Shown: positions 1-61,798 of the stretch, piece by piece | How the letters are laid out: each line of letters begins with the position of its first letter | Position numbering within the stretch: the stretch's first letter is position 1 | NCBI GenBank assembly: GCA_965220775.1 | Contig: OZ244845.1 | Span: 2,066,568-2,130,567, forward strand | DNA length: 64,000 nt | Direction: 5' to 3' | Source of the DNA: Chloroflexota bacterium | GTDB lineage: Bacteria > Chloroflexota > UBA6077 > FW602-bin22 > JBCLEL01 | The notes under the pieces: model-generated | Told to the model about the DNA's origin: nothing | What the model saw: only the letters and a program-made list of their open reading frames with translations | Databases searched by the model: none | Translations under genes and position numbers: made by a program

Positions 1-1
1 T

Positions 2-649
2 CAGGCCAACCTGATGGACGCCAACACGCCGTTCATTACCTCGCTCAACGATGACCCCCGGTTCTGGGAGACCGCCGAGCGGTTGCTCGGCAAAGAGGTA
101 TTGGGTGTAGGGGGAGACAGCAACTACTACGTCGGCGACACGGCCTGGCATCCCGATAACAACGGACTGCGACAAGATTCCGTCAAATTCACAATCTACC
201 TCGAACCGCTCAATGCGACCAACGGTGCGCTCCGCGTGATTCCCGGCTCGCATCGTGAGCCATTGCATAGCGCAATACGCGGAGGCACGCGCCAGGAACA
301 CTCCAGTGCCGTCGGACCGAATTTCGGAATCCGGCCCAATCAGGTGCCGGCCTATGCCTTTACCTCAGAACCGGGTGATGTCCTCGCTTTCCATACCGGA
401 ACTTGGCACGGGGCGTTCGGCGGAAACACAAAGCGGCGCATGGGCACAATCCAATACTACGAGAATCCGCAAACGGTGGAGTCATTCGAAGAGATACGCC
501 GAGTTCTGCGCCACACTCACAAGACAGAGATTGACAGGATTGGTCGCCCGTGGTTTCCGGAATATTGGCGATCGTTAGACAACCCTCGCCACAAGGCGTG
601 GGTCCGGCGTGTGGATGAGATCATGGCGCTCGATGAAGTCCACGACTAG
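2..649 (+). CDS. PhyH-like Fe(II)/2-oxoglutarate dioxygenase, 5'-partial (copy 1 of tandem array)
   Basis: Frame is open to the window edge. The protein aligns residue-for-residue with the C-terminal ~210 aa of the two downstream paralogs (NLMDxNTPFITSLNDDPRFWE, WHPD, RVIPGSHREPLH, AFHTGxWHxAFGG). The HxD (HPD) plus distal His are consistent with a 2-His-1-carboxylate site. Confidence 0.75.
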   Translation, partial: QANLMDANTPFITSLNDDPRFWETAERLLGKEVLGVGGDSNYYVGDTAWHPDNNGLRQDSVKFTIYLEPLNATNGALRVIPGSHREPLHSAIRGGTRQEHSSAVGPNFGIRPNQVPAYAFTSEPGDVLAFHTGTWHGAFGGNTKRRMGTIQYYENPQTVESFEEIRRVLRHTHKTEIDRIGRPWFPEYWRSLDNPRHKAWVRRVDEIMALDEVHD

Positions 650-907
650 CCCGATCGGAGTTGCGCCGACGAGATGTAGCTGATGGGTTCTTTGGTTACT
701 CGAAGTACCGGCTTGATCACGTCACCCCGGCGCTCCGATTCGCCGACTGATTCGAGTGCTGGGAGGGAATCCGATTCCTGGGCTGCAAGCACCCTATAGC
801 GTTGTCAGGTCGCGTTGAAGAGCTGCGTCAAGGCGCCGCGTCCCGGCGCCAAGCGGGGATAACATACTAAGTCGTGACATTCTCTTAGGATGATCAGGGA
901 GGGCCGA

Positions 908-1726
908 ATGAGACTCACCGAACAGCAGATCAACCACTTTCGCACCTTTGGATTCTTAGTCTTCCGACAGCTCTTCTCACCGGAGGAATGGAAGACCTAC
1001 TGTCACGAGTTCGACTTAGGGTTGGATGCATTGATCCCGGACCACAAGCACGGCGGCAAGGCCCGGTTTCAGGCTAACCTGATGGACGGCAACACGCCGT
1101 TCATTACCTCACTGAACGATGACCCCCGGTTTTGGGAGACGGCCGAGCAGTTGCTCGGCAAAGAGGTATTGGGTATTGGCGGAGACAGTAACTACTACGT
1201 CGGTGATACGGCTTGGCATCCCGACAATAGATCGCTGGTACAAGATTCCGTCAAATTCACGATCTACCTCGAACCGCTCAATGCGCGCAACGGAGCGCTC
1301 CGGGTCATTCCCGGCTCGCATCGAGAGCCGCTGCATAGCGCAATAGCTGGAGGGGTCCTACAGGAATACTCCAGTGCCCGGGGCACCGTCGGATCGAATT
1401 TCGGAGTCCGGCCTGATCAACTGCCGTCCTATGCCTTTGTGTCAGAACCACGTGATGTTCTGGCTTTCCATACCGGAATTTGGCACGCTGCGTTCGGTGG
1501 CAACAACCGGCGTCGCATGGGTACGATTCAGTACTACGAGAATCCGCAAACGGCGGACTCATTCGAGGAGATACGCCGGGTGTTGCGCCGGATTCACGAA
1601 AAAGAAATTGAAATGCATGGTCGCCCGTGGTTTCCAGAATTCTGGCGATCGTTAGACAACCCTCGTCACCAGGCGTGGGTCCGGCGCATGGATGAGATCG
1701 CGGCGCTCGATGAAGTCCACGACTAG
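908..1726 (+). CDS. PhyH-like Fe(II)/2-oxoglutarate dioxygenase (copy 2)
   Basis: ORF 890..1726. I prefer the ATG at 908 (MRLTEQQINHF) because AGGGAGGG lies 5 nt upstream and the paralog at 36722..37534 starts with MNLTQQQLNHF. Motifs are the same as in copy 1. Confidence 0.8.
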   Translation: MRLTEQQINHFRTFGFLVFRQLFSPEEWKTYCHEFDLGLDALIPDHKHGGKARFQANLMDGNTPFITSLNDDPRFWETAEQLLGKEVLGIGGDSNYYVGDTAWHPDNRSLVQDSVKFTIYLEPLNARNGALRVIPGSHREPLHSAIAGGVLQEYSSARGTVGSNFGVRPDQLPSYAFVSEPRDVLAFHTGIWHAAFGGNNRRRMGTIQYYENPQTADSFEEIRRVLRRIHEKEIEMHGRPWFPEFWRSLDNPRHQAWVRRMDEIAALDEVHD

Positions 1727-1984
1727 CCCGATCGGGGTTGCGCCGACGAGATGTAGCTGATGGGTTCTTCGGTTACTCGAAGTACCGGCTTGATCACGTC
1801 ACCCCGGCGCTCCGATTCGCCGACTGATCAGAGTCTTGGGCGCAATACCGATTCCCGGGCTACAAGCACCCTTTCGCGTTGTCAGGTCGCGTTGAAGAGT
1901 TGCGCCAAGGCGCCGTTTCCCGGCGCCAAGTGGGGATAACATACTAAGTTGTGACATTCTCTTAGGATGATCAGGGAGGACCGA

Positions 1985-2812
1985 ATGAGACTCACCGAAC
2001 AGCAGATCAACCACTTTCGCACCTTTGGATTCTTGGTCTTCCGGCAGCTCTTTACGCCGGAAGAGTGGAAGACCTATTGTCACGAGTTCGACTTAGGGTT
2101 GGATGCATTGATCCCGGGGCACAAGCACGATGGCAGGACCCGGTTTCAGGCTAACCTGATGGACGCCACCACTCCGTTCATTACGTCGTTGAACGATGAC
2201 CCCCGGTTCTGGGAGACGGCCGAGCAGTTGCTTGGCAAAGAGGTATTGGGTGTTGGCGGAGACAGCAACTACTACGTCGGCGACACGGACTGGCATCCCG
2301 ATAATCAGTGGCTGCGTCAGGATTCCGTCAAATTCACGATCTACCTCGAACCGCTCGATGCGCGCAACGGTGCGCTCCGCGTGATTCCCGGTTCCCATCG
2401 AGAGCCATTACATAGCGAAATAGCGGGAGGCTCAATGCGGGATTACGTCGATGCCCCGCACGACGTCGGGTCAAATTTCGGAGTCCGGCCCGATCAAGTT
2501 CCGTGCTATGTATTTGATTCAGAACCGGGTGATGTCCTCGCTTTCCATACCGGAATCTGGCACGGCGCGTTCGGCGGCAGCACAAAGCGTCGCATGGGCA
2601 CAATCCAATACTACGAGGATCCGCAAACAGAGGTCCCGCTCCAGGCGGTCCGGAGCGTGTTGCATGGGATTGACCGGCGAGAGATTGAAGTGCATGGTCG
2701 CCCGTGGTTTCCGGACTATTGGCGGACGATAGACAATCCTCGGCACCAGGCGTGGGTCCGGCGCATGGATGAGATCGCGGCGCTTGATGAACCGGCCGGC
2801 GGGCTCACTTAG
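1985..2812 (+). CDS. PhyH-like Fe(II)/2-oxoglutarate dioxygenase (copy 3, divergent C-terminus)
   Basis: ORF 1967..2812. The ATG at 1985 is homologous to the 908 start. The C-terminal tail (DEPAGGLT) differs from copies 1 and 2 (DEVHD), which marks the end of the repeat. Confidence 0.8.
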   Translation: MRLTEQQINHFRTFGFLVFRQLFTPEEWKTYCHEFDLGLDALIPGHKHDGRTRFQANLMDATTPFITSLNDDPRFWETAEQLLGKEVLGVGGDSNYYVGDTDWHPDNQWLRQDSVKFTIYLEPLDARNGALRVIPGSHREPLHSEIAGGSMRDYVDAPHDVGSNFGVRPDQVPCYVFDSEPGDVLAFHTGIWHGAFGGSTKRRMGTIQYYEDPQTEVPLQAVRSVLHGIDRREIEVHGRPWFPDYWRTIDNPRHQAWVRRMDEIAALDEPAGGLT

Positions 2813-2901
2813 GGTTGCGTCAGGGCGTTTGCCCCGACAAATAATCCGTTAACGCCACCACCATCAAGGGACGTTAGGACAACCCGCCAGAGTATTGGGT
2901 G

Positions 2902-3101
2902 TCACCACCGTCCCAACGGCTCCGCCGCAAAGCGCGTGACCGTCTTCATCTGCGCCGGCCCAGCCCGCTTCAGATGATTCCGCAGATACAACGGGTAGTT
3001 GGTTGGAGAGTCGTCCCGAGGCGAGATATCAACGAACGTATTGCCCCGGAACGTGCGTTTGTAGATCGTCTCCAAGCGCCACGCTCGCGCCAAGGTAGCT
3101 G
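2902..3101 (-). pseudogene. Orphan 3'-terminal fragment of a paralog of the 4095..5960 gene
   Basis: About 200 nt align with 4095-4300, starting at the stop codon. The encoded tail LARAWRLETIYKRTFRGNTFVDISPRDDSPTNYPLYLRNHLKR...W corresponds to the last ~66 aa of the 621-aa protein. Upstream of 3101 the homology stops. Confidence 0.6.
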
Positions 3102-3251
3102 CCGGCGCGTATTGAGAACGCTCGTTAGATCGCCTGCCGCTTACGAACGCGCCGGCGTACAATTGATCTCATCAAACTTGCGAGTGGGTCTGTGCGAGTC
3201 GTGAAGATCTAACTGTCGCAACGAGTAGCAAAGGCGAGGAGGTACGACCCA

Positions 3252-4004
3252 TTGAAGGCGATCCATAACCTACGTGCCGGGCTTTGCGGCGTCCTTGCGC
3301 TGATCCTTATCGTGTCCGCGGCTTGCAGCGAAGCGCCGGCCGCCATCCGAATGGGCACCGAAGGCGCTTACCCTCCGTACAGCTTCATCAACGAGAGCGG
3401 TGAAGTCGACGGTTTCGAGCGCGAGCTGGGCGATGAGCTGTGCCGGCGAGCCGAGCTCGAATGCACTTGGGTGACCAACGAATGGGACACCATCATCCCC
3501 AATCTCGTAAAAGGAGACTACGACACTATCCTCGCCGGCATGAGTATCACCGACGAACGGGACAAGGTAATCGATTTCACTCAAGCCTATTTCCCGCCAA
3601 GCCCCTCGCTCTACGTTGCAAGGGCCGGCGCCAGCGTCGATGTCGTCAAGGGCGTCGTAGCCACCCAGGTGAACACCGTCCAGGCCGATCATCTTGCCGG
3701 AACCGAAGCGACGCTGGTCGAGTTCGCCACAATCGGCGAGGCCATCGACGCCGTCTTGAAAGGCGATGCTGACGCGGCACTGGCCGACAACTCCTACCTA
3801 AAAGACGTCGTGGCCGAGAGCGACGGAAAGCTGGTCTTTGTAGGACCGGAAGTGGTATTGGATGGCGGAGTAGGGATGGGTGTGCGCGAATCAGACGGCG
3901 AGTTGAAAACCAAGATGAATGAGGCCATCGACTCGATGAAATCCGATGGCTCGCTGAATGCTCTGATCAAGAAGTGGTTCGGCGAGGACGCCCAAACCTT
4001 CTGA
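3252..4004 (+). CDS. Polar amino-acid ABC transporter substrate-binding lipoprotein (SBP family 3)
   Basis: TTG start. Signal peptide with lipobox (LIVSAAC). Typical family-3 core: YPPYSF..GE..GFE.EL..ELC.R...ECTWV..EWD.IIP.L..G.YD.I.AGMSIT.ER....DF. Confidence 0.8.
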   Translation: MKAIHNLRAGLCGVLALILIVSAACSEAPAAIRMGTEGAYPPYSFINESGEVDGFERELGDELCRRAELECTWVTNEWDTIIPNLVKGDYDTILAGMSITDERDKVIDFTQAYFPPSPSLYVARAGASVDVVKGVVATQVNTVQADHLAGTEATLVEFATIGEAIDAVLKGDADAALADNSYLKDVVAESDGKLVFVGPEVVLDGGVGMGVRESDGELKTKMNEAIDSMKSDGSLNALIKKWFGEDAQTF

Positions 4005-4094
4005 CGCCCCGGCAATCTGCCTCTTCGCCGGCGGCGCTCGACGCCGGTCCTGGCTTTCCTAATGAAGCCCCTCCCGCGCTTAGAGAGCCGGGAA

Positions 4095-5960
4095 TCACCA
4101 TTGAACCAATGGTTTGGCGGCGAAGCGCTTGACCGTTTTCATCGGCGCCGGCCCGGGCCGCTTCAGATGGTCCCGCAAATAGAGCGGGTAGTTGGTGGGG
4201 GACTCATCCCTAGGAGAGATATCAACTAGGGTATTGCCCCGGAAAGTGCATTTGTAGATCGTCTCCAAGCGCCACGCTCGCGCCAAGGCTGTGTAGCTGA
4301 TGGTCTCCTCGATCACCGGGAATTTCAACGTGATAACGTCGCCCGGCTTTAGGAGGTCAAATACCGCGTAATTACCCACCCAGTACGGCTGACGGGGTTG
4401 ACCTCCGACATCGAATCGCAGCTTGCGGCGATCTATCCAAGACGAAACCCGGACGGATATGCGCCGGGCCGATTTGTTTTTGATCTGCACCTTTCCTTCG
4501 TAGGGCAGGTGGCTGTCGACGTCCAACCAAGGGGATGCTCGATTGAGGAGCAGATTCACCTGGGCGTTCTTCCCGTCTGGGCAGCGAACGATTCCCTCCC
4601 AGGCATAGTACAAACCCTGGGTCCCGTTTCCCGTACAGCAGCTCATCACCCACGGGCGCTCGACTGCGGTAATGCCGGCCCACCCGGCAAACGTTCCCAG
4701 AGTTCGCTCAATTACGTTTTCATTGCTTACTTGCCCGGGATGAGTTGGCACGAATCCCTGCCCCTGGATGTCCCAAGGGCGAGGAGGACTCGCCTCGGAC
4801 ACCCTGTGCAGCAGTTCGGCGTTGCTGAACTGGGCTTCCACCAGGTGGTTGCGGACTACGCAGTCCACGTCATCCCAGTAGTCGCCGATGCCGGCGTCGC
4901 TCAGCCGGATTCCTAGCGCTACCCAATCGCCCAGGTAACACCCCTCGCACCCGCCGATGTTTCCGGCGAAGTGCTTCGGCCCGCCCGTGGGCGCCCAGCC
5001 GATCCGCGGAATCGCGAACATGCGCGAATACTCGTAGCTACGACGGACGAATTCCTTGACCCTCTCGTTGTTCACAACCATGGCGTACTCGAGAATTCCG
5101 CGCAGGGGTATGGCACGAGCGTGGAAATGGGAATCGAAGTGACCCTGCTCGCCTCCGGCGACCAGAACTGGATCCGGGTCTCCCTGCCAGAATCGAGGCT
5201 TCATGATGAAATTCGTCAGCTTGCCAGCCAGTTCCATCGCCCGTTCGTCCCCGCTCACCGCATACCAGCGGGCCAATCCCTGGGTCTGATGCCCCTGGTA
5301 GGTTGTCACCGCGCCCTCGCCGCCTTCGTGCTCGTCTAGCGGCTCTCTCGTGTCTCGCCATCCGGACTTAGGATAGTTGAACGCCTCGCCGGCTCCGCCA
5401 TCCGGGTAGTAGGCATAGTCGTCCTTGTGTATCGCTATCTTGTCCAATCCACGGACGAGGGCCCTTATCCTATCGTCCCAGGCCGGATCGCCGTCGCGCT
5501 CGCGCCAGGTCACCATCGCCCTCAACATCCGGCCATTGCCGGCGACGTTCGCCATGTCCTCGGTTGACTGCTCGTATCCGTGGTGTCCCTGCGTGTGCCA
5601 GGGCCGCTTGTCGCTGTGCGAAGCGTAGTACAGACCATCGTCCGGGGACAGCCGGCCGGCCAGCATGGTCATCAGCCCGTGCTCGGTTTCTAGATGCAAG
5701 TCGCTGCCGCAGGCTGCGCGCATCAACGGAAACGATTCGGCGAACTTTGGCTCGTTCGTGGGACCGAATGCCCAGTGATACATGTAGGCTGGATTCGCAC
5801 TGTAGCGGATCCAGAAGTAGTTCTCGTAGTCCAACTCGGGATTGAGCGAGCCGCCCAACCCATTCAGAGCTAGTTCGGTGCGATCCGCCAAATCCAAGGT
5901 GTCGGGAATAGTTGCCTGGTAGCGTTCACCTTCAATCCTCGGCTTACCTACTAGTGCCAT
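4095..5960 (-). CDS. Large cytoplasmic protein, GH127/DUF1680-like (beta-L-arabinofuranosidase-like fold) candidate
   Basis: 621-aa ORF. It carries C-E-G-C at residues 338-341 and C-C at 441-442. From memory, this resembles the Glu/Cys...Cys-Cys zinc and nucleophile arrangement of GH127. There is no signal peptide. Confidence 0.45.
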   Translation of the reverse strand: MALVGKPRIEGERYQATIPDTLDLADRTELALNGLGGSLNPELDYENYFWIRYSANPAYMYHWAFGPTNEPKFAESFPLMRAACGSDLHLETEHGLMTMLAGRLSPDDGLYYASHSDKRPWHTQGHHGYEQSTEDMANVAGNGRMLRAMVTWRERDGDPAWDDRIRALVRGLDKIAIHKDDYAYYPDGGAGEAFNYPKSGWRDTREPLDEHEGGEGAVTTYQGHQTQGLARWYAVSGDERAMELAGKLTNFIMKPRFWQGDPDPVLVAGGEQGHFDSHFHARAIPLRGILEYAMVVNNERVKEFVRRSYEYSRMFAIPRIGWAPTGGPKHFAGNIGGCEGCYLGDWVALGIRLSDAGIGDYWDDVDCVVRNHLVEAQFSNAELLHRVSEASPPRPWDIQGQGFVPTHPGQVSNENVIERTLGTFAGWAGITAVERPWVMSCCTGNGTQGLYYAWEGIVRCPDGKNAQVNLLLNRASPWLDVDSHLPYEGKVQIKNKSARRISVRVSSWIDRRKLRFDVGGQPRQPYWVGNYAVFDLLKPGDVITLKFPVIEETISYTALARAWRLETIYKCTFRGNTLVDISPRDESPTNYPLYLRDHLKRPGPAPMKTVKRFAAKPLVQW

Positions 5961-17280: not shown

Positions 17281-18123
17281 TCATTCGCGCATAGCCCCGA
17301 GCGTCATTCCCTGTATGAAGGTGCGCTGTAGCAAGACGAAGACAACCAATGGCACAGTCATGATAATTGCCAACCCGGCGAAGAGCATTATCTGATCGCT
17401 GTAATAGAATGTGCGAAAGTTTCCCAAGGCCAACTGAACGGTGAACAACGCCGGCTTCTGGATGACGATCAGCGGCAGGAAGTAGTCGTTCCAGACGAAT
17501 ACCGCCTCAAATACCGTCACCGCCATGATCCCCGGCACCGACAGAGGCAAAACAACAAACCGAAGGACTTGGAATCGGCCCCCGCCGTCGAGCTTACAGG
17601 CGTCTTCCAATTCCCTGGGCACTGCCTGAAAGAACGAGGTGAGTATTACCGTCGCGAACGCTACGCCGCCGGAAGTCGTTGCGATTACTAGCCCCTGCAA
17701 TGAGTTCAACAGGCCAAGCGTGCGAAGCAGGACGAAAATCGGAATCAGTGTCACTTCAGCAGGAATCATCAGCGGAATAAGCACCGCTAGGAAGACCACC
17801 GACCGCATCGGTAATTCCAGCCGGGCGAAAGCGTAGGCGGCCGGCGCGGCGATCAGCAGGATGAGCAATACCGTTGCCGAGGTCACCAGCGTGGAGTTGC
17901 GGAAAGCGACGCCGAGTTGACCCAAGGTCCAAGCCTTGGTGATGTTGTCGAAGTGCGGCGGGTTCGGTATTGCCCAGGGCAGCGCGTAGAGTTCGCCACT
18001 TGTCTTCAAGCTGCTCATTAGTGTCCATAAAACCGGGTATGCCCACAGGATGAGCAAGATCCCCAACACCACGTGGAGTATGAGCTGCGCCCGAATTCGC
18101 GGATGAAATACCTTCGCGATCAT
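17281..18123 (-). CDS. CUT1 sugar ABC transporter permease, MalG/UgpE type (orphan)
   Basis: ORF 17281..18237. I prefer the ATG at 18123 (MIAKVFHPRIRAQLILHVV...). It has a multi-TM layout and the EAA-like loop region CKLDGGGRFQVLRFVVLP. No partner permease, SBP or ATPase is adjacent. Confidence 0.8.
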   Translation of the reverse strand: MIAKVFHPRIRAQLILHVVLGILLILWAYPVLWTLMSSLKTSGELYALPWAIPNPPHFDNITKAWTLGQLGVAFRNSTLVTSATVLLILLIAAPAAYAFARLELPMRSVVFLAVLIPLMIPAEVTLIPIFVLLRTLGLLNSLQGLVIATTSGGVAFATVILTSFFQAVPRELEDACKLDGGGRFQVLRFVVLPLSVPGIMAVTVFEAVFVWNDYFLPLIVIQKPALFTVQLALGNFRTFYYSDQIMLFAGLAIIMTVPLVVFVLLQRTFIQGMTLGAMRE

Positions 18124-18231
18124 CGAGTGTGCTCGTCGACTCGCCGGCGCAATACCCGGACTTCCAACAGCGTCACGATCAATACCACGGCGAATAGAGA
18201 GATCTACGACCGCGAAGGGGATGTCCAGTCC

Positions 18232-18897
18232 GCCCACGAACCTGGTACCAAGAGGAGTTTCAATCTAACGGCGAGAGCGGCCATTTTCCGGGAGATTATC
18301 CAGGCTCCTAAGCTAGTTGCGTGCATGGAGTACCTGCTCGGACCAGATTACATTCTCTCGGACATGGGTGGCCGTTCGCCGATGCCGGGCGTTCCCTCGC
18401 AGCAACTCCATCGCGATGGCGGATTTTTCGTTCCCAACCCGCCGTACAACGTGCACACTGTTCTACCTACATCGGCTCAATCCATGATCGCCCTCTGCGA
18501 TTTCACCCCTGAAAAGGGCGCCACCCGGTTTGTTCCCCGATCACATGTGAGAGACGTAGACCCTGGGACCATACCCGCGGAGGAGGAGAGTCTCTTTATC
18601 TGTTCGGCCGGGTCAGTGCTAGTCTATGACAATCGACTGATCCATGGCGGCAGTCTAAACACCACCAACGAGATTCGCTATTCGGCGCAAGGATTCTGCT
18701 GCCGGAAGACAACCAAGCCGTTCTGCGATCACACCAGGTCTATTCCGGCGGACGTCCTAGCATCGGCCACGCCGCTGATGCGCCGGCTCTGGGGATTTGA
18801 GTATCAATCCGCCTGGGAGGAGTCGCCGCGAGACTTCTCCATCGTCGAGGCTCCCGGCGCAAAGCCGGTGTTCGACTTCAACCGCGGCATAGAATAA
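18232..18897 (+). pseudogene. PhyH-like dioxygenase lacking its N-terminal ~60-70 aa (5'-truncated, possibly a pseudogene)
   Basis: It retains LHRDGGF (HxD), TRFVPRSH and RLIHGGS. The sequence upstream of about 18232 is non-PhyH-like and overlaps the permease gene on the other strand. There is no credible start with an SD; the first in-frame ATG is at 18322. Confidence 0.4.
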
Positions 18898-36721: not shown

Positions 36722-37534
36722 CTACGAACTCCGTCGCTCCATGGTTGGGGTATCGAGCAACTCCTGGTCCGCCATCCAGCGAATCCAGCGCTGGTGAGTC
36801 TCGTCGTCGATCGAACGCCAGAAATCAGGGTACAGCTGGTGCCCGGGATGCGTTGCCCTGGTTTGAGCGAACATTCGCTGGTTTGACTCCATCTGGTCGC
36901 GAACCGCAAGTAGGGCCTGATCGCTGGTCGGCTCCTCGTAGAACCCAATCTCGCACATCCGCCGGCGGGCCCCTCCGTGGAATGCCCCGTGCCAGATCGG
37001 CATGTTGAACGCAAGGACGTCTCCCGGCTCTGTCTCGAACACGTAGGCCGGCAGCTCATCGGGGTTGACGCCAAATGTAGATTGCGTGTCCCTATTGATC
37101 GTGCTCCACAACGGCTCGCGGTGGGAGCCCGGTATCACGCGCAAGGCCCCATTCGTCGCATCCAGCCGGTCGAAATATGTCGTGAACTTAACCGCCTTGT
37201 AGTCCAAGTTTTTCGCGTCCGCATGCCAGGAAGTGTCGCCTACGTGGTAGCTTCCGCCTATTGCGACGCCAAGCACCCTCGTACCCAGCAACTGCTCAGC
37301 CACGCCGGCTATGCGTGGATCGTGCATCAAAGATGAGGAGAAAGGAGTATTCGAGTCCATCAGTGATGCGAAGTGCCTCGCCTTCCCTTCGTGGACGCCG
37401 TTCGGGAGCCAGGAATCGAGTTCGCTATCGAACTCCTGGCCGAACTTCTGCATTTCATCTGGGGAAAAGAGCTGGCGCAGGGCCACGAAACCGAAGGTGT
37501 TGAAGTGGTTCAGCTGCTGCTGAGTCAGATTCAT
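36722..37534 (-). CDS. PhyH-like Fe(II)/2-oxoglutarate dioxygenase (paralog of the tandem array)
   Basis: MNLTQQQLNHFNTFGFVALRQLFSPDEM, WHAD, RVIPGSHREPLW and FNMPIWHGAFHGG show the same architecture as genes 908..1726 and 1985..2812. Confidence 0.8.
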   Translation of the reverse strand: MNLTQQQLNHFNTFGFVALRQLFSPDEMQKFGQEFDSELDSWLPNGVHEGKARHFASLMDSNTPFSSSLMHDPRIAGVAEQLLGTRVLGVAIGGSYHVGDTSWHADAKNLDYKAVKFTTYFDRLDATNGALRVIPGSHREPLWSTINRDTQSTFGVNPDELPAYVFETEPGDVLAFNMPIWHGAFHGGARRRMCEIGFYEEPTSDQALLAVRDQMESNQRMFAQTRATHPGHQLYPDFWRSIDDETHQRWIRWMADQELLDTPTMERRSS

Positions 37535-37550
37535 TGGATGCTCTCCTTGT

Positions 37551-38951
37551 TCACTCCAAGATAGTGGACAGCGCCCTGTAGACGCTTCCCATGGCCCTCA
37601 CGTCGTCATTGGGAAGAATCGTCCGCAAGTCGATCAATACGCGGTCGTGTTCGATCCGTCCGATGACCGGCGGCTCGGCTGCGCGCAGCGCACGAGCGAT
37701 TATATCGCAATCCAAGCCATCCCCACGGCCGGCCCGCCCTATGTGCACGGCCCAAGATTCCAACTCTTGCGCCGGCGTCGACCCTCCGCCAACGGTCGCG
37801 CTGCTGTGAATCAGGCCGACCTCCGCTGGCAAAGGCGCTAGGTTGTCTAGCCAACACTGTCCCCTTGATTCGAGCTCGGTAGTTGAGGCGGAGATCATGC
37901 GCCAGACCGGTATCTTCTCGGTCGCTTCTCCACGTTGGTAATGCCGCAAAGTCGCCTCGAGGGCTGCCAGACTCATTTTGTCGATTCGTAACGCTCGAGC
38001 CAATGGGTGGCTGGCGCAGCGCTGTACTGCATCGGACCTTCCTACAATCAAGCCGGCCTGGGGGCCTCCCAGCAACTTGTCGCCGGAAAAGCAAACCAGG
38101 TCGGCGCCCGCCTCGACGCTGTCTCGCACTATCGGTTCGTCGCGCAGACCAAACTGCTCGGGATCTATGAGGCAACCGCTGCCCAGGTCATCGACAACGC
38201 TGAGTCCGTGCCGGCCGGCCAGTTCCACCAACTCTTCCAAAGGTGGCTCGTGGGTGAAGCCTATGATCCGGAAATTACTCTGATGCACCCGGAGGAAAAC
38301 CGCGGTGTCCGGCCCAACCGCTCGCTCGTAGTCGGCGAGGTAGGTGCGATTGGTAGTGCCAACCTCCACCAGCTGGCCGCCGCTCTGCTCCATCACCTCA
38401 GGTATGCGGAAACCGCCTCCGATCTCTATCGCCTGGCTTCGCGAAACGACGATCTCGCGACAAGTCGCCAGCGATGCCAACGCAAGAAGTACGGCGCCGG
38501 CATTGTTGTTCGCCACCAATGCGTCTTCAGCGCCAGTCAGCTCGGCGAGCCAACTTCGAACGTGGCTGTGGCGCGATCCGCGGTTTCCTTCGTCGAGATC
38601 GAATTCGAGGTTTGAGTAGCTGGTTGCGGCGTTCATCGCTGCTGCCGCCGCGTCGTCGGACAGCGTAGCTCGACCCAGGTTCGTGTGAATGATGACGCCG
38701 GTGCCGTTGATTACCGGCCGCAGGTTGAGTTGCTGTGACCTCTCGACGCTACGCTCCAGTCGAGCTACCAATGCCGCTGGCCCGGCTGCTGACTCGCCGG
38801 CGATCCGGCTGTTGCGCTCGTCGGCCAGTACCGCTCGGACCTGGTCCGCTACGACGGCACGCCCATTCAATTCAATTAGCTTGGCCACTTCCGGCATCGA
38901 TAACATACGATCCACGCTCGGAATGTCGCGGAGATTGGCGTGCACGATCAT
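37551..38951 (-). CDS. selA: L-seryl-tRNA(Sec) selenium transferase
   Basis: LRDIPSVDRML, VINGTGVIIHTNLGRA and FSGDKLLGGPQAGLIVG (PLP lysine context) are SelA signatures. Confidence 0.85.
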   Translation of the reverse strand: MIVHANLRDIPSVDRMLSMPEVAKLIELNGRAVVADQVRAVLADERNSRIAGESAAGPAALVARLERSVERSQQLNLRPVINGTGVIIHTNLGRATLSDDAAAAAMNAATSYSNLEFDLDEGNRGSRHSHVRSWLAELTGAEDALVANNNAGAVLLALASLATCREIVVSRSQAIEIGGGFRIPEVMEQSGGQLVEVGTTNRTYLADYERAVGPDTAVFLRVHQSNFRIIGFTHEPPLEELVELAGRHGLSVVDDLGSGCLIDPEQFGLRDEPIVRDSVEAGADLVCFSGDKLLGGPQAGLIVGRSDAVQRCASHPLARALRIDKMSLAALEATLRHYQRGEATEKIPVWRMISASTTELESRGQCWLDNLAPLPAEVGLIHSSATVGGGSTPAQELESWAVHIGRAGRGDGLDCDIIARALRAAEPPVIGRIEHDRVLIDLRTILPNDDVRAMGSVYRALSTILE

Positions 38952-48096: not shown

Positions 48097-48885
48097 TTAC
48101 TTGAGCCCAATCTCCACTAGCTTCTGCACCATCGCCTTGATACGAGGCCGGTCACTATTTAGGAACGAGTCGTCGTACAGCCGGCCCTTGTTGGAGAATT
48201 GGTGATCGTCTTGGTACTCTAAGTTGCCCTGGTAGGCGTCCCGCATGTATTGGATTTGGCGCTCGGTGGTTGGCTTGGCTTTTACGTTTAGCGTGAACAT
48301 ACGGCGTCCGGTTTGCCCACCAAAAGCAGAATGCCAGGTATTGTGATTGAAGAACACCACGTCGCCCGGCTGTGACTCTAGCGGGAAACACGGAACGTTA
48401 CGAGGCTCGACCAGCGGCGAGGGGTTCGGTTCGTTGCGGTTAATCAGCGTCCTCAGTTGGTCATGCATCGGCGGGCGGTGCGAGCCAGGGATCACACGCA
48501 GGCACCCGGTGTCTTTCGTAACAGGGTCCAGATAGAACGCAACTTTGATCCCGTCATAGCGGAAATCTGGGGCGGCGTCTGGATGCCAATCCGTGTCACC
48601 GACGTACAGATTGCTGTCGGAGCCGATCCACACCAATCCAGGGCCAAGAATCTGCTCCAATGGCTCATAGATACGGTCGTCCTCGATTAGCCACGGGAAA
48701 GAGCTTTCCGGCACGGAGTAGACGCAGTGGCGCTGTTGCCCATCAAAGGGCTGCCCTTGTCGATCGTCACTGAGGGCCCGATCGAACTTGCCGCTGATCT
48801 CATTCGCTTCTGAAGGCGACAGGTAACTCCGCATAACTATGAAGCCGAAGATTTCGAAGTATTTCGTTTGCTCCTCGTTAAGCAT
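48097..48885 (-). CDS. PhyH-like Fe(II)/2-oxoglutarate dioxygenase (more distant paralog)
   Basis: MLNEEQTKYFEIFGFIVMRSYLSPSEA, WHPD, RVIPGSHRPPMH and FNHNTWHSAFGG. Confidence 0.75.
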   Translation of the reverse strand: MLNEEQTKYFEIFGFIVMRSYLSPSEANEISGKFDRALSDDRQGQPFDGQQRHCVYSVPESSFPWLIEDDRIYEPLEQILGPGLVWIGSDSNLYVGDTDWHPDAAPDFRYDGIKVAFYLDPVTKDTGCLRVIPGSHRPPMHDQLRTLINRNEPNPSPLVEPRNVPCFPLESQPGDVVFFNHNTWHSAFGGQTGRRMFTLNVKAKPTTERQIQYMRDAYQGNLEYQDDHQFSNKGRLYDDSFLNSDRPRIKAMVQKLVEIGLK

Positions 48886-48974
48886 TCTTTGACCTCCTTA
48901 GCGCGTCACAGGCGCGGATTCATCGCCCAACTCTGGCCCACTCCGCACCCGGGTGGCTGTATTTCGCATAACGA

Positions 48975-60747: not shown

Positions 60748-61798
60748 ATGGCCGTCGACGTGAAAGAGTTGCAGGTTTCCAACGATGCACTAAACGATCC
60801 GGCGGAGCTACGCTCGCGAATCGGACGAACAGGGGTACCTGTTCTTCCGCAATCTCGTCGATAAGGATCTGCTGTGGGACTTGCGCCTTCAGCTGCTGGC
60901 GAAGTCTGCCAGCAAGGGGGTTGGATACAATCCGGGAACAGACCTTGCCGATGGCGTGGTCGACCTATCGCGCCGATGCGCCGAAGGTGACCTGGACTAC
61001 TCCCCCATCTATACAGGGGTTCAGAAGGTGGAGGCATTCCATCGAATTGCGCACGATCCCGAGTTCGTAATGACCATTCAGAAGATTGTCGATGGTGAAG
61101 TGCTGGTTCAACCTCAGAAGGTTGCCCGCCTCTGGTTTCCTCAATTTACCGATCACACGACGCCGCCGCACCAGGACTTCGTCCACTTCCAAGGGGACTT
61201 CGACACCTACACCTGCTGGACGCCGGTCGGCGACTGTCCGATTGAGCTCGGCGGGTTGGCCATACTAGTTGGGTCGCACAAACGCGACACCGTGCTTGAT
61301 CATCACTTCTCCTTGGGCGCCGGCGGATTGAGGGTCAACGAAGAAGATCAGCAGGGCGAGTGGGTCAGCACCGACTTTGAAATCGGCGACTGCCTGATTT
61401 TCCACAGCCTGACCGTACATCAGGCCCTGCCAAACCTCACGGAAGACAAGTTGCGGGTCTCGCTCGATAATCGCTATCAGGCCGTGGATGTGCCCATTTC
61501 TGAGAGCCAGATCAAACCGCATCTGAGCCGGCTCACCGAGCAAACCTGGGAGGACATCTACGCCGGCTGGCAAACAAGCGACCTCCGTTACTATTGGCGT
61601 GACTTGGATCTGGAGGTCTCCCCTTCGGACCTCAGCCGGCACGAGCGCGGGTTCGCCGAGGCGCTTGAACTGGCGAGGCAAGGTGTAGAGAGAGCCCGTC
61701 CGGCGTTGGAGCGGGCAATAGAACGCGATCCTTACTCACCTCAGGCCAAGGATGCCGTAGACGCCCTGCGAGAGTTGGATGCTGCAATCAAGAACTAG
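60748..61798 (+). pseudogene. PhyH-like dioxygenase interrupted by an apparent +1 frameshift near 60823
   Basis: ATG 60748 gives MAVDVKELQVSNDALNDPAELRSRI, then runs into TAA at 60862. The +1 frame continues DEQGYLFFRNLVDKDLLWDLRLQLL... into ORF 60881..61798, which contains PPHQDF (HxD) and LIFHSLTVHQA. Confidence 0.5.

What the first reader, a model, noticed from the sequence alone, without database searches (positions are those of the whole stretch)
1..2812. Tandem triplication of a PhyH-like dioxygenase gene together with its spacer
**What the sequence shows.**
- A unit of about 1.07 kb (gene plus a 240-nt spacer carrying the SD) is repeated head-to-tail at least 2.6 times. Position 1 aligns with 1069 and 2146.
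- In the stretches I compared by eye, roughly nine of ten nucleotides are identical.
- The spacers 650-889 and 1727-1966 are as conserved as the coding parts.
- The third copy has a different C-terminal tail, which marks the right end of the amplified unit at about 2790. The array may continue beyond the left window edge.
- All copies keep the HxD...H iron-binding residues.

**Interpretation.** This looks like a recent gene amplification that is now diverging, not a set of decaying copies.
Basis: seen in the sequence. Interest (0 to 1): 0.6.

Follow-up and report, generated by a model that had tools for sequence, protein, structure and literature searches.

The report
Old, reshuffled PhyH dioxygenase gene triplet
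Three side-by-side copies of an iron/2-oxoglutarate oxygenase gene are real and intact, but they are an old gene array that related bacteria also carry and keep reshuffling, not a recent amplification, and they belong to a family of about 88 such genes in this Chloroflexota genome.

Summary
There are exactly three head-to-tail PhyH-family (PF05721) Fe(II)/2-oxoglutarate dioxygenase genes: c1 at window -160..649, c2 at 908..1726 and c3 at 1985..2812. Two 258-nt spacers separate them, and no fourth copy lies to the left.

"Recent amplification" is not supported:
- The copies differ by 14-17% at nucleotide level (dS 0.43-0.50, dN/dS 0.22-0.33).
- Two congeneric Chloroflexota genomes and several independent assemblies carry the same array at the same locus.
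- The 3' halves of the genes form copy lineages (C, B, A2, and a looser A1 group) that cross species boundaries.

The array is also dynamic:
- Relatives carry 2, 3 or 5 copies.
- c1 is a chimera.
- The spacers and the first ~130-300 nt of the genes are homogenised by gene conversion, which explains why the spacers are more alike than synonymous sites.

Each spacer contains a relic of the last 23 codons of the upstream gene plus a copy of the intergenic region with its ribosome-binding site. This shows what the original duplicated unit was.

All copies keep the H104-x-D106...H193 metal ligands. Differences between copies cluster in loops next to the metal site. The substrate is unknown.

The triplet is the youngest branch of an ~88-member PhyH expansion, comparable to the one published for Poribacteria. 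It is a new member of a known kind.

The parts
1..649 (+). c1, the first PhyH-family dioxygenase gene (269 aa). Its ATG lies at window -160, left of the window. It is a chimera: the 5' half resembles the position-1 gene of G001 and the 3' half resembles lineage B.
   Evidence: Searches give the coordinates. One search gives the PF05721 match. One search gives the sliding identity. One search gives the max-chi-square test: breakpoint near gene nt 445, informative sites 17:6 to the left and 2:31 to the right, p=2e-4.
650..907 (+). Spacer Q1 (258 nt, non-coding). The first part of it (roughly window 659-685) corresponds to the PhyH 3' flank; this match was read on relatives' sequences and in G000 it is weaker. 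751-819 is a relic of the last 23 codons of upstream gene X. 846-906 is a copy of the X-to-PhyH intergenic region. The AGGGAGG ribosome-binding site is at 896-902.
   Evidence: One search gives the tblastn match (E 1e-6 to 6e-4) and the blastn match to the intergenic region (82-84%, E 1e-12 or better). One search gives the relic translation FECWEGIRFLGCKHPIALSGRVE, against the X C-terminus FERWGQYRFLGYKLSRALSDHVE. One search gives the 3' flank match. Searches find no Rfam family, promoter or terminator. One search shows it is not a dispersed repeat.
908..1726 (+). c2, the second PhyH-family dioxygenase gene (272 aa, lineage A1). It is the most divergent copy, and codons ~147-213 are unlike any other sampled copy.
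   Evidence: The AF2 model has pLDDT 91. The same lineage is present in 13 database sequences from at least 10 assemblies.
1727..1984 (+). Spacer Q2 (258 nt). It has the same build as Q1: X relic at 1828-1896, intergenic-region copy at 1923-1983, and ribosome-binding site at 1973-1979.
1985..2812 (+). c3, the third PhyH-family dioxygenase gene (275 aa, lineage C). It is always the last gene of the array in relatives and keeps the ancestral C-terminal tail (..LDEPAGGLT). Its first ~130-300 nt have been converted by a neighbouring copy.
   Evidence: One search shows the family consensus tail L-E-T-P-x3-4. One search gives informative sites 4:6 to the left and 112:1 to the right, p=2e-4.
2813..2850 (+). 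3' flank of c3. It is still homologous to the start of the spacers, so this is the true right end of the repeated unit.
   Evidence: 'GGTTGCG..' lies 21 nt after GATGAA in all copies, and 13 of 13 bases are identical in G001 and L022.
2902..3093 (-). Relic of the 3' end (last ~63 codons) of the GH127-like gene. It was duplicated when the segment carrying the solute-binding-protein (SBP) gene was inserted.
   Evidence: (repeat D3, 83%), and (84% aa over 63 residues).
3252..4004 (+). Family-3 solute-binding protein gene (amino-acid type). It is an insertion polymorphism, absent from G002, L016-19 and L022-23.
   Evidence: PF00497; TIGR01096, 158 bits, below its cut-off..
4095..5960 (-). GH127-like 621-aa gene, convergent with the array. 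In relatives without the SBP insertion it is the direct neighbour of c3.
   Evidence: One search gives two co-linear Pfam matches below their cut-offs (PF07944 E=0.082, PF20736 E=0.024). Searches give the synteny. Searches show 17 paralogs at 12 loci, 8 of them within 5 kb of a PhyH gene (p=6.5e-4).

Best explanation
**What it is.** The locus is an old tandem family of three Fe(II)/2-oxoglutarate-dependent oxygenase genes of the PhyH superfamily.

**Origin (inferred from anatomy)**
- One segment was duplicated. It ran from about 70 nt or more inside the 3' end of the upstream gene X (weakly HhH-GPD-like), through the ~60-nt intergenic region with its ribosome-binding site and the PhyH ORF, to at least ~35-40 nt beyond it.
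- The copy of X's 3' end became the non-coding spacer.
- The last gene (C) kept the original C-terminal tail.
- The upstream copy gained a premature stop (..DEVHD*). It was later duplicated again, giving lineages A and B.

**Age (shown).** These events predate the split of the sampled species of the genus.

**Later history (shown by mosaicism and copy-number differences)**
- The array has evolved by unequal crossing-over. Relatives have 2, 3 or 5 copies.
- It has also evolved by gene conversion, which keeps the spacers and the first 130-300 nt of the genes alike within a genome.
- The 3' two-thirds of the genes stay distinct under purifying selection. This part encodes the loop after the HxD motif, a flexible loop at aa 147-160 and the helix at aa 216-237.

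**Function (inferred).** The three proteins are active isoenzymes that hydroxylate, or otherwise oxidise, related small polar molecules with differing specificity. They are part of an ~88-gene oxidative toolkit. The substrate is not known.
For: **Anatomy**
- Three units and no more.
- Each has its own AGGGAGG ribosome-binding site 5 nt before the ATG.
- The relic of X's last 23 codons lies at 751-819 and 1828-1896. It is co-linear with a copy of the intergenic region.
- The c3 tail matches the family consensus L-E-T-P-xxx.
- Flank homology continues beyond the stop codon.

**Age and selection**
- Paralog dS is 0.43-0.50 and dN/dS is 0.22-0.33.
- Ortholog dS between G000 and G002 is 0.63 for both c3 and the TPP (thiamine pyrophosphate) enzyme gene upstream. 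Paralog dS inside G002 is 0.53-0.93.
- The same locus and synteny are found in G001 and G002.
- The 3'-half tree gives clades C (100/100), B (100/99) and A2 (99/98) across genomes.

**Dynamics**
- Arrays are A2-C in L016-19, A2-B-C in G001 and L020-23, A1-B-C in G002, B-A1-C here and in L015, and five copies in L024.
- Against G001 the flanks are 97-98% identical, but c2, Q2 and the c3 5' end are only ~85% identical.
- The 5'-part tree is incongruent with the 3'-part tree.
- Max-chi-square breakpoints have p=2e-4.
- Spacers are 87-96% alike within a genome but only 65-70% alike between G000 and G002. This fits concerted evolution, not constraint.

**Enzyme**
- PF05721 scores 43-53 bits against a cut-off of 22.
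- H104 is invariant, and D106, H193, R202 and R203 are nearly invariant, across 84 homologues.
- The profile aligns HxD and the distal His with EctD, E=1.8e-15.
- The AF2 model has pLDDT 91. Its best PDB matches are GriE, FtmOx1, AviO1, HygX, PrhA and EctD.
- Positions that separate the lineages cluster at aa 102, 108-111, 147-160, 174-178 and 216-237.

**Family context**
- The genome has 88 PhyH-like ORFs.
- This triplet holds the most similar paralogs among them.
Against: - The order of lineages differs between genomes (B-A1-C here, A-B-C in G001 and G002). I can only explain this by chimerism plus extra unequal crossovers. The exact sequence of events is not resolved.
- The origin of spacer nt ~37-101 is undetermined. 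There is no significant match to X.
- A functional constraint on the very conserved first 100 nt of the spacers is not excluded.
- The claim that the copies differ in substrate rests only on where the substitutions fall.
- Some relatives carry frameshifted C copies (L023, L024; L020 has a longer variant). So the copies are not indispensable everywhere, although these could be errors in low-coverage contigs.
Confidence: 0.8

Rival explanations
1. This is a recent adaptive gene amplification that is only now starting to diverge.
For: - The three copies are the most similar PhyH paralogs in the genome, at 78-82% aa.
- Copy number varies among close relatives.
- The spacers are 91.5% identical.
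Against: - dS is 0.43-0.50.
- Other species share the array and its lineages.
- The C lineage in G002 is at dS ~0.9 from the others.
- The similarity is concentrated in conversion tracts.
Confidence: 0.05
2. Each species duplicated the gene independently. The within-genome similarity then reflects parallel, lineage-specific duplications, not an old array with gene conversion.
For: - Paralog dS within G000 (0.43-0.50) and within G001 (0.17-0.42) is lower than ortholog dS to G002 (0.63).
- Both spacers of a genome share length class: 258 nt in G000 and G001, 82-83 nt in G002.
Against: - The 3'-half tree groups copies by lineage across genomes with 99-100% support.
- All non-terminal copies in all genomes share the derived truncated tail, while all terminal copies keep the ancestral tail.
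- Significant intragenic breakpoints show mosaicism directly.
Confidence: 0.08
3. The spacers are conserved because they carry a functional element, such as a promoter or operator, an RNA structure or a processing site needed to express the downstream gene. This could act instead of, or together with, gene conversion.
For: - Stretches 631-750 and 841-960 are 97-98% identical between Q1 and Q2.
- The ~60 nt before each ATG are also conserved upstream of c1.
- Q2 folds better than its shuffles, z = -2.6.
Against: - Q1 does not fold better than its shuffles, z = -0.5.
- There is no Rfam match and no sigma-70-like promoter or terminator.
- G002 lacks the central ~175 nt in both spacers. The rest is only 65-70% identical to G000, which is about the neutral level for that species pair.
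- A 59-aa ORF in Q2 is interrupted in Q1.
Confidence: 0.2
4. The repeat is an assembly artefact: a false expansion of a single gene.
For: None found. Read-level data could not be consulted.
Against: - The copies differ at 14-17% of positions and in length (269, 272 and 275 aa).
- An independent assembly (L015) and two other genomes show the same structure.
- Each copy has its own database cluster, seen in many assemblies.
Confidence: 0.01

Closest known systems
PhyH (pfam05721) gene-family expansion in the sponge symbionts Candidatus Poribacteria (Kamke et al. 2014, PMC3909097)
   Same: - Both show a very high share of diverse PhyH-domain genes. Poribacteria have more than 1.9% of genes. This genome has ~88 ORFs in 3.88 Mb, which I estimate at roughly 2-2.5% of genes.
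- In both, most members have no assignable substrate.
   Different: - The phylum differs: this is Chloroflexota.
- I found no paper in the held library reporting this expansion for Chloroflexota.
- The present finding is one tandem triplet within the expansion. Its duplication junctions and conversion history are resolved here.
Paralog expansions of oxidative enzymes in SAR202 Chloroflexota (Landry et al. 2017, PMC5395668)
   Same: It is the same phylum and the same general idea: many paralogous oxygenases as a toolkit for diverse or recalcitrant organic matter. [quoted passage not shown] A TPP enzyme gene lies two genes upstream of this array.
   Different: - The expansions stressed there are flavin monooxygenases, not PhyH.
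- Whether this genome belongs to SAR202 is unknown, because the records say only 'Chloroflexota bacterium'.
- Nothing here shows activity on phytanoyl-CoA.
Ectoine hydroxylase EctD and leucine 5-hydroxylase GriE (solved PhyH-superfamily small-molecule hydroxylases)
   Same: - They are the best sequence-profile and fold matches. EctD (4MHR) has E=1.8e-15 with HxD and the distal His aligned. GriE (5NCH) is the top Foldseek hit.
- Size (~270 aa) and the single-domain double-stranded beta-helix build are alike.
   Different: - Identity is only 15-21% and TM-score 0.5-0.6.
- The score against the EctD equivalog model is 25 bits against a cut-off of 336.5.
- These proteins are therefore not ectoine or leucine hydroxylases by any membership criterion.
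Tandem multigene families evolving by unequal crossing-over and gene conversion (concerted, or birth-and-death, evolution; textbook concept, from my own knowledge)
   Same: - Copy number varies between close relatives.
- There are chimeric genes.
- Flanks and 5' ends are homogenised.
- The functionally distinctive parts are kept apart by selection.
   Different: Nothing essential differs. This is a clean bacterial example in which the founding junction (the relic of the upstream gene's 3' end) is still legible.

Membership tests
PhyH superfamily (PF05721) Fe(II)/2-oxoglutarate oxygenases | Significant match to the family profile above the curated cut-off | tested here: met
   c1 scores 52.3 bits, c2 43.4 bits and c3 53.1 bits, against a cut-off of 22.
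PhyH superfamily (PF05721) Fe(II)/2-oxoglutarate oxygenases | H-x-D...H facial triad for iron | tested here: met
   WH104PD106 and WH193 are present in all three copies. H104 is invariant, and D106 and H193 are at least 90% conserved, in 84 homologues. They align to the EctD HxD and distal His.
PhyH superfamily (PF05721) Fe(II)/2-oxoglutarate oxygenases | Basic residue about 10 positions after the distal His that binds the C5 carboxylate of 2-oxoglutarate | tested here: inconclusive
   R202 and R203 are at least 90% conserved, at +9 and +10 from H193. The role is assigned by analogy with human PhyH (from my own knowledge) and was not checked on coordinates.
PhyH superfamily (PF05721) Fe(II)/2-oxoglutarate oxygenases | Double-stranded beta-helix fold | tested here: met
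   The AF2 model has pLDDT 91 and pTM 0.91. Its 502 Foldseek PDB matches at E<=1e-3 are led by PhyH-type oxygenases.
PhyH superfamily (PF05721) Fe(II)/2-oxoglutarate oxygenases | 2-oxoglutarate-dependent oxidation of a substrate | not testable with these tools
   This needs an enzyme assay.
Ectoine hydroxylase EctD (TIGR02408 equivalog) | Score above the equivalog cut-off | tested here: not met
   25.3 bits against a cut-off of 336.5.
Phytanoyl-CoA 2-hydroxylase proper (human PAHX type) | Full-length similarity to the characterised enzyme | tested here: not met
   The profile matches PDB 2A1X only over query positions 3-43, E=1.6e-5, and no stretch passes on its own.
Recent gene amplification | Near-identical copies, with silent-site divergence close to zero | tested here: not met
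   dS is 0.43-0.50.
Recent gene amplification | Absent from related species (single copy at the orthologous locus) | tested here: not met
   All sampled relatives have 2-5 copies at the same locus.
Tandem family under concerted / birth-and-death evolution | Copy lineages shared across species | tested here: met
   Clades have 99-100% support in the 3'-half tree.
Tandem family under concerted / birth-and-death evolution | Mosaic genes and incongruent trees along the unit (gene conversion or unequal crossover) | tested here: met
   One search gives p=2e-4 for c1 and c3.
Tandem family under concerted / birth-and-death evolution | Copy-number variation among close relatives | tested here: met
   There are 2, 3 and 5 copies. 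The 5-copy contig has only 4x coverage.

The most novel reading that the evidence does not exclude
The triplet may be one module of an undescribed catabolic scheme. In it, PhyH-type oxygenase isoenzymes would work together with the neighbouring GH127-like protein on glycan- or sugar-derived compounds.

- Both families are co-expanded: ~88 PhyH genes and 17 GH127-like genes.
- They are co-localised: 8 of 12 GH127-like loci lie within 5 kb of a PhyH gene, p=6.5e-4.
- A PhyH tandem pair also sits next to a GH127-like gene in another genus.

The conserved spacers would then serve as homology arms. These would let strains swap or change the number of oxygenase cassettes while selection keeps the substrate-specifying 3' halves distinct.
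Probability: 0.2. Interest if true: 0.6.

Novelty: new member of a known kind. Interest (0 to 1): 0.35.

Why it matters
What looked like a fresh amplification is an old array whose similarity is kept up by gene conversion.
- **A legible founding junction.** A relic of the upstream gene's last 23 codons survives in each spacer. This makes the locus a tidy bacterial example of how tandem families are born and then reshuffled: chimeras, 2-5 copies between strains, and homogenised 5' ends beside distinct 3' halves.
- **A large unreported expansion.** An uncultured Chloroflexota genus devotes roughly 2% of its genes (~88) to PhyH-type oxygenases. That matches the enrichment known from Poribacteria, and I found no report of it for Chloroflexota in the searched literature.
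- **An open question.** The substrates of these enzymes are unknown. The co-localisation with GH127-like genes offers a testable lead.

Tried and rejected
- **RNA element in the spacers.** There were no Rfam hits at E<=1. Only one of the two spacers folds better than its shuffles.
- **Promoter or terminator.** None were found by the consensus scans.
- **Spacer as a dispersed repeat or MITE.** There are no other copies in the genome.
- **Small ORF in the spacer.** A 59-aa frame in Q2 is stopped after 38 aa in Q1.
- **Origin of the first ~100 nt of the spacer from X coding sequence.** The match is no better than for shuffled sequence. Part of it matches the c3 3' flank instead.
- **A simple swapped gene order (B before A).** This was replaced by chimerism of c1.
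- **Direct PDB sequence hits for c2 and for the 621-aa protein.** None were found.
- **Defence-system role for gene X.** There was no PADLOC hit.
- **Literature on a PhyH expansion in Chloroflexota.** None was found.
Full report
**1. The observation**

The window starts inside the first of three head-to-tail PhyH genes.
- Repeat finding puts 1-300, 1069-1368 and 2146-2445 in register at 86-87% identity, and 309-608, 1386-1685 and 2463-2762 at 79-83%.
- The window is G000:C1:2066568-2130567 of a single-contig 3.88-Mb genome.
- A BLAST of one unit against the whole genome finds exactly three adjacent units. The leftmost begins at window -176. All other hits are distant paralogs at 63-70% identity.
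- The genes are c1 (-160..649, 269 aa), c2 (908..1726, 272 aa) and c3 (1985..2812, 275 aa).
- I take the second ATG as the start. It lies 5 nt after AGGGAGG. The first ATG is missing upstream of c1 and in all copies of a related genome.
- All three proteins match PF05721 above its cut-off.

**2. Divergence and selection**

- Gene identity is 82.6-85.7% at nucleotide level and 78-83% at amino-acid level.
- Nei-Gojobori dS is 0.43-0.50 and dN/dS is 0.22-0.33. The highest dN/dS (0.37-0.59) falls in codons 120-180.
- The spacers Q1 (650-907) and Q2 (1727-1984) are 91.5% identical. Stretches 631-750 and 841-960 reach 97-98%. That is far above the ~67% identity of synonymous sites.

**3. Relatives**

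- Two genomes of the same genus, annotated only as 'Chloroflexota bacterium' MAGs (OZ253568.1 and CAXXUG010000028.1), have three tandem copies at the syntenic locus. The order there is TPP enzyme, gene X, the PhyH array, then a convergent 621-714-aa gene.
- Exact-protein look-ups retrieved ten more loci from independent assemblies:
  - L015 is 97-100% identical to this array.
  - L016-19 carry two copies.
  - L020-23 carry three copies.
  - L024, a 4x-coverage contig, carries five copies.
- A nucleotide tree of 37 copies resolves four groups:
  - C is always last and has its own tail.
  - B has a 3-codon deletion.
  - A1 and A2 are the other two groups.
- The arrays read B-A1-C here, in L015 and in the first three genes of L024, A2-B-C in G001 and L020-23, A1-B-C in G002, and A2-C in L016-19.

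**4. Age**

- Ortholog dS between this genome and G002 is 0.63, for both c3 and the flanking TPP gene. Between this genome and G001 it is 0.07-0.19.
- Paralog dS inside G002 is 0.53-0.93. The C versus A/B split is therefore at least as old as the genus radiation.
- The lower paralog dS here (0.43-0.50) and in G001 (0.17-0.42) points to partial homogenisation.

**5. Mosaicism**

- In a co-linear comparison with G001, the flanks, Q1 and most of c3 are 97-100% identical. The stretch from window ~960 to ~2150 (c2, Q2 and the c3 5' end) is only ~85% identical.
- Unit-by-unit sliding identity shows that c1 matches G001's first gene in its 5' half (94-97%) and G001's second gene in its 3' half (96-99%).
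- Max-chi-square tests place a breakpoint at gene nt ~445 in c1. Informative sites are 17:6 on the left and 2:31 on the right, p=2e-4. They also show that the first ~130-300 nt of c3 are not C-like (4:6 against 112:1, p=2e-4).
- Trees from gene columns 1-300 and 420-816 are incongruent. The 3' part gives clades C (100/100), B (100/99) and A2 (99/98). The 5' part mixes them.
- Spacers are 87-96% alike within a genome. Between this genome and G002 they are only 65-70% alike, and both G002 spacers are 82-83 nt long.
- This pattern fits concerted evolution of the spacers and gene 5' ends, not sequence constraint.

**6. Origin of the spacer and the unit**

- Every long spacer contains, at nt 102-170, a recognisable relic of the last 22-23 codons of the upstream gene X. 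Window 751-819 translates to FECWEGIRFLGCKHPIALSGRVE and 1828-1896 to SESWAQYRFPGYKHPFALSGRVE. X ends in FERWGQYRFLGYKLSRALSDHVE*. The tblastn E-values are 1e-6 to 6e-4.
- A copy of the X-to-PhyH intergenic region follows at nt ~195-258 (82-84% identity, E 1e-12 or better).
- The 5' end of the spacer matches the 3' flank of c3 at the same offset. 'GGTTGCGCCAACG' is 13 of 13 identical in G001 and L022.
- The c3 tail (..LDEP+4-5 residues) matches the family consensus L-E-T-P-x3-4. The ..DEVHD* tail of the other copies does not.
- The founding event was therefore a tandem duplication of [X 3' end + intergenic region + PhyH + short 3' flank]. The upstream copies later acquired an early stop.
- The origin of spacer nt ~37-101 is unresolved.
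- X itself is weakly HhH-GPD-like (PF00730, E=0.028, below its cut-off).

**7. The enzyme**

- H104 is invariant, and D106, H193, R202 and R203 are at least 90% conserved, among 84 homologues.
- A profile of these homologues aligns the HxD motif and the distal His to ectoine hydroxylase 4MHR (E=1.8e-15).
- The AF2 model is confident (pLDDT 91). Its best PDB matches are GriE, FtmOx1, AviO1, PrhA, HygX and EctD, at TM 0.5-0.6 and 15-21% identity.
- The score against the EctD equivalog model is far below its cut-off, 25 bits against 336.5. No specific function can be assigned.
- Positions that separate the four lineages cluster right after the HxD motif (aa 102, 108-111), in the low-confidence loop at aa 147-160, at aa 174-178, and on helix aa 216-237. 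That these positions set substrate choice is an inference.

**8. Family context**

- The Pfam model finds at least 68 PhyH matches in each of the three genomes of the genus. It finds 35 in a 69%-complete genome of a sister genus, 0-8 in the other genomes of the order and class that were searched, and none in 14 control genomes.
- An iterated HMM search of all ORFs converges on 88 PhyH-like ORFs here. They include 12 tandem clusters.
- The present triplet holds the most similar paralogs of the 88.
- Kamke et al. 2014 reported more than 1.9% PhyH genes in Poribacteria, against less than 0.049% elsewhere at that time.
- Landry et al. 2017 mention PhyH and hydroxyphytanoyl-CoA lyase genes in SAR202.
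- I found no report of a PhyH expansion in Chloroflexota.

**9. Right-hand neighbourhood**

- In relatives without the solute-binding-protein (SBP) gene, c3 is followed directly by the convergent 621-714-aa gene.
- Here a ~1-kb segment carrying the SBP gene (window 3094-4094) is inserted. The insertion is flanked by a ~193-bp duplication of that gene's 3' end (2902-3093 and 4095-4287).
- The 621-aa protein has two co-linear GH127 matches below their cut-offs.
- It has 17 paralogs at 12 loci, and 8 of those loci lie within 5 kb of a PhyH gene (permutation p=6.5e-4).
- A sister genus also has a PhyH tandem pair next to a homologue of this gene.

**10. Verdict**

- The 'recent amplification' reading is replaced by an old array that is kept by selection and is recombinationally active.
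- The finding is a new member of a known kind and is of moderate interest.

Noticed in passing
window 2902-3093 and 3094-4287: The solute-binding-protein (SBP) gene segment (about 3094-4094) is an insertion polymorphism. It is flanked by a ~193-bp direct duplication of the 3' end of the GH127-like gene (2902-3093 and 4095-4287, 83-84% identical). It is present here and in G001, L015, L020, L021 and L024. It is absent in G002, L016-19 and L022-23.
   Followed up: partly
window 4095-5960 (-) and 16 further loci in the genome: The 621-aa protein has two co-linear GH127 Pfam matches below their cut-offs. It belongs to a 17-member paralog family. Eight of its 12 loci lie within 5 kb of a PhyH gene (permutation p=6.5e-4), and a sister genus also has a homologue beside a PhyH pair. 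This may be a two-enzyme module.
   Followed up: partly
whole genome; in the window also 18031-18897 (+), 36722-37597 (-), 48097-48897 (-) and 60794-61798 (+): There are about 88 PhyH-like ORFs in 3.88 Mb, including 12 tandem clusters: 8 pairs, 3 triplets and 1 quadruplet. Each of the two congeneric genomes has at least 68. Most of the other genomes searched in the same order and class have none, and a few have 1-8.
   Followed up: partly
left of the window, -1327 to -727 (gene X, -1185..-223): The N-terminal half of the upstream gene X (320 aa, weak HhH-GPD match) is only 61-81% identical to G001, although the flanks are 97-98% identical. In L015, L016 and G002 a McrBC-like pair (AAA_5 + McrBC) is inserted just upstream of X. 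This is a variable spot next to the array.
   Followed up: no
L024:599-6872: One low-coverage (4x) contig carries five PhyH copies in the order B-A1-C-SBP-B-C(frameshifted). The last two copies group with those of the more distant species G002. This suggests inter-lineage recombination, or a chimeric contig.
   Followed up: no
L023:6071-6897, L020:6069-6935, L024:6053-6872: In some relatives the terminal (C) copy is frameshifted or has an altered end. This could be real decay, or errors in low-coverage contigs (4-8.6x).
   Followed up: no
left of the window, -2849 to -1221: A TPP-dependent enzyme gene (542 aa, with TPP_enzyme_N, M and C domains) lies two genes upstream of the array in all relatives. 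2-hydroxyacyl-CoA lyases belong to this fold, but no link to the PhyH genes was tested.
   Followed up: no
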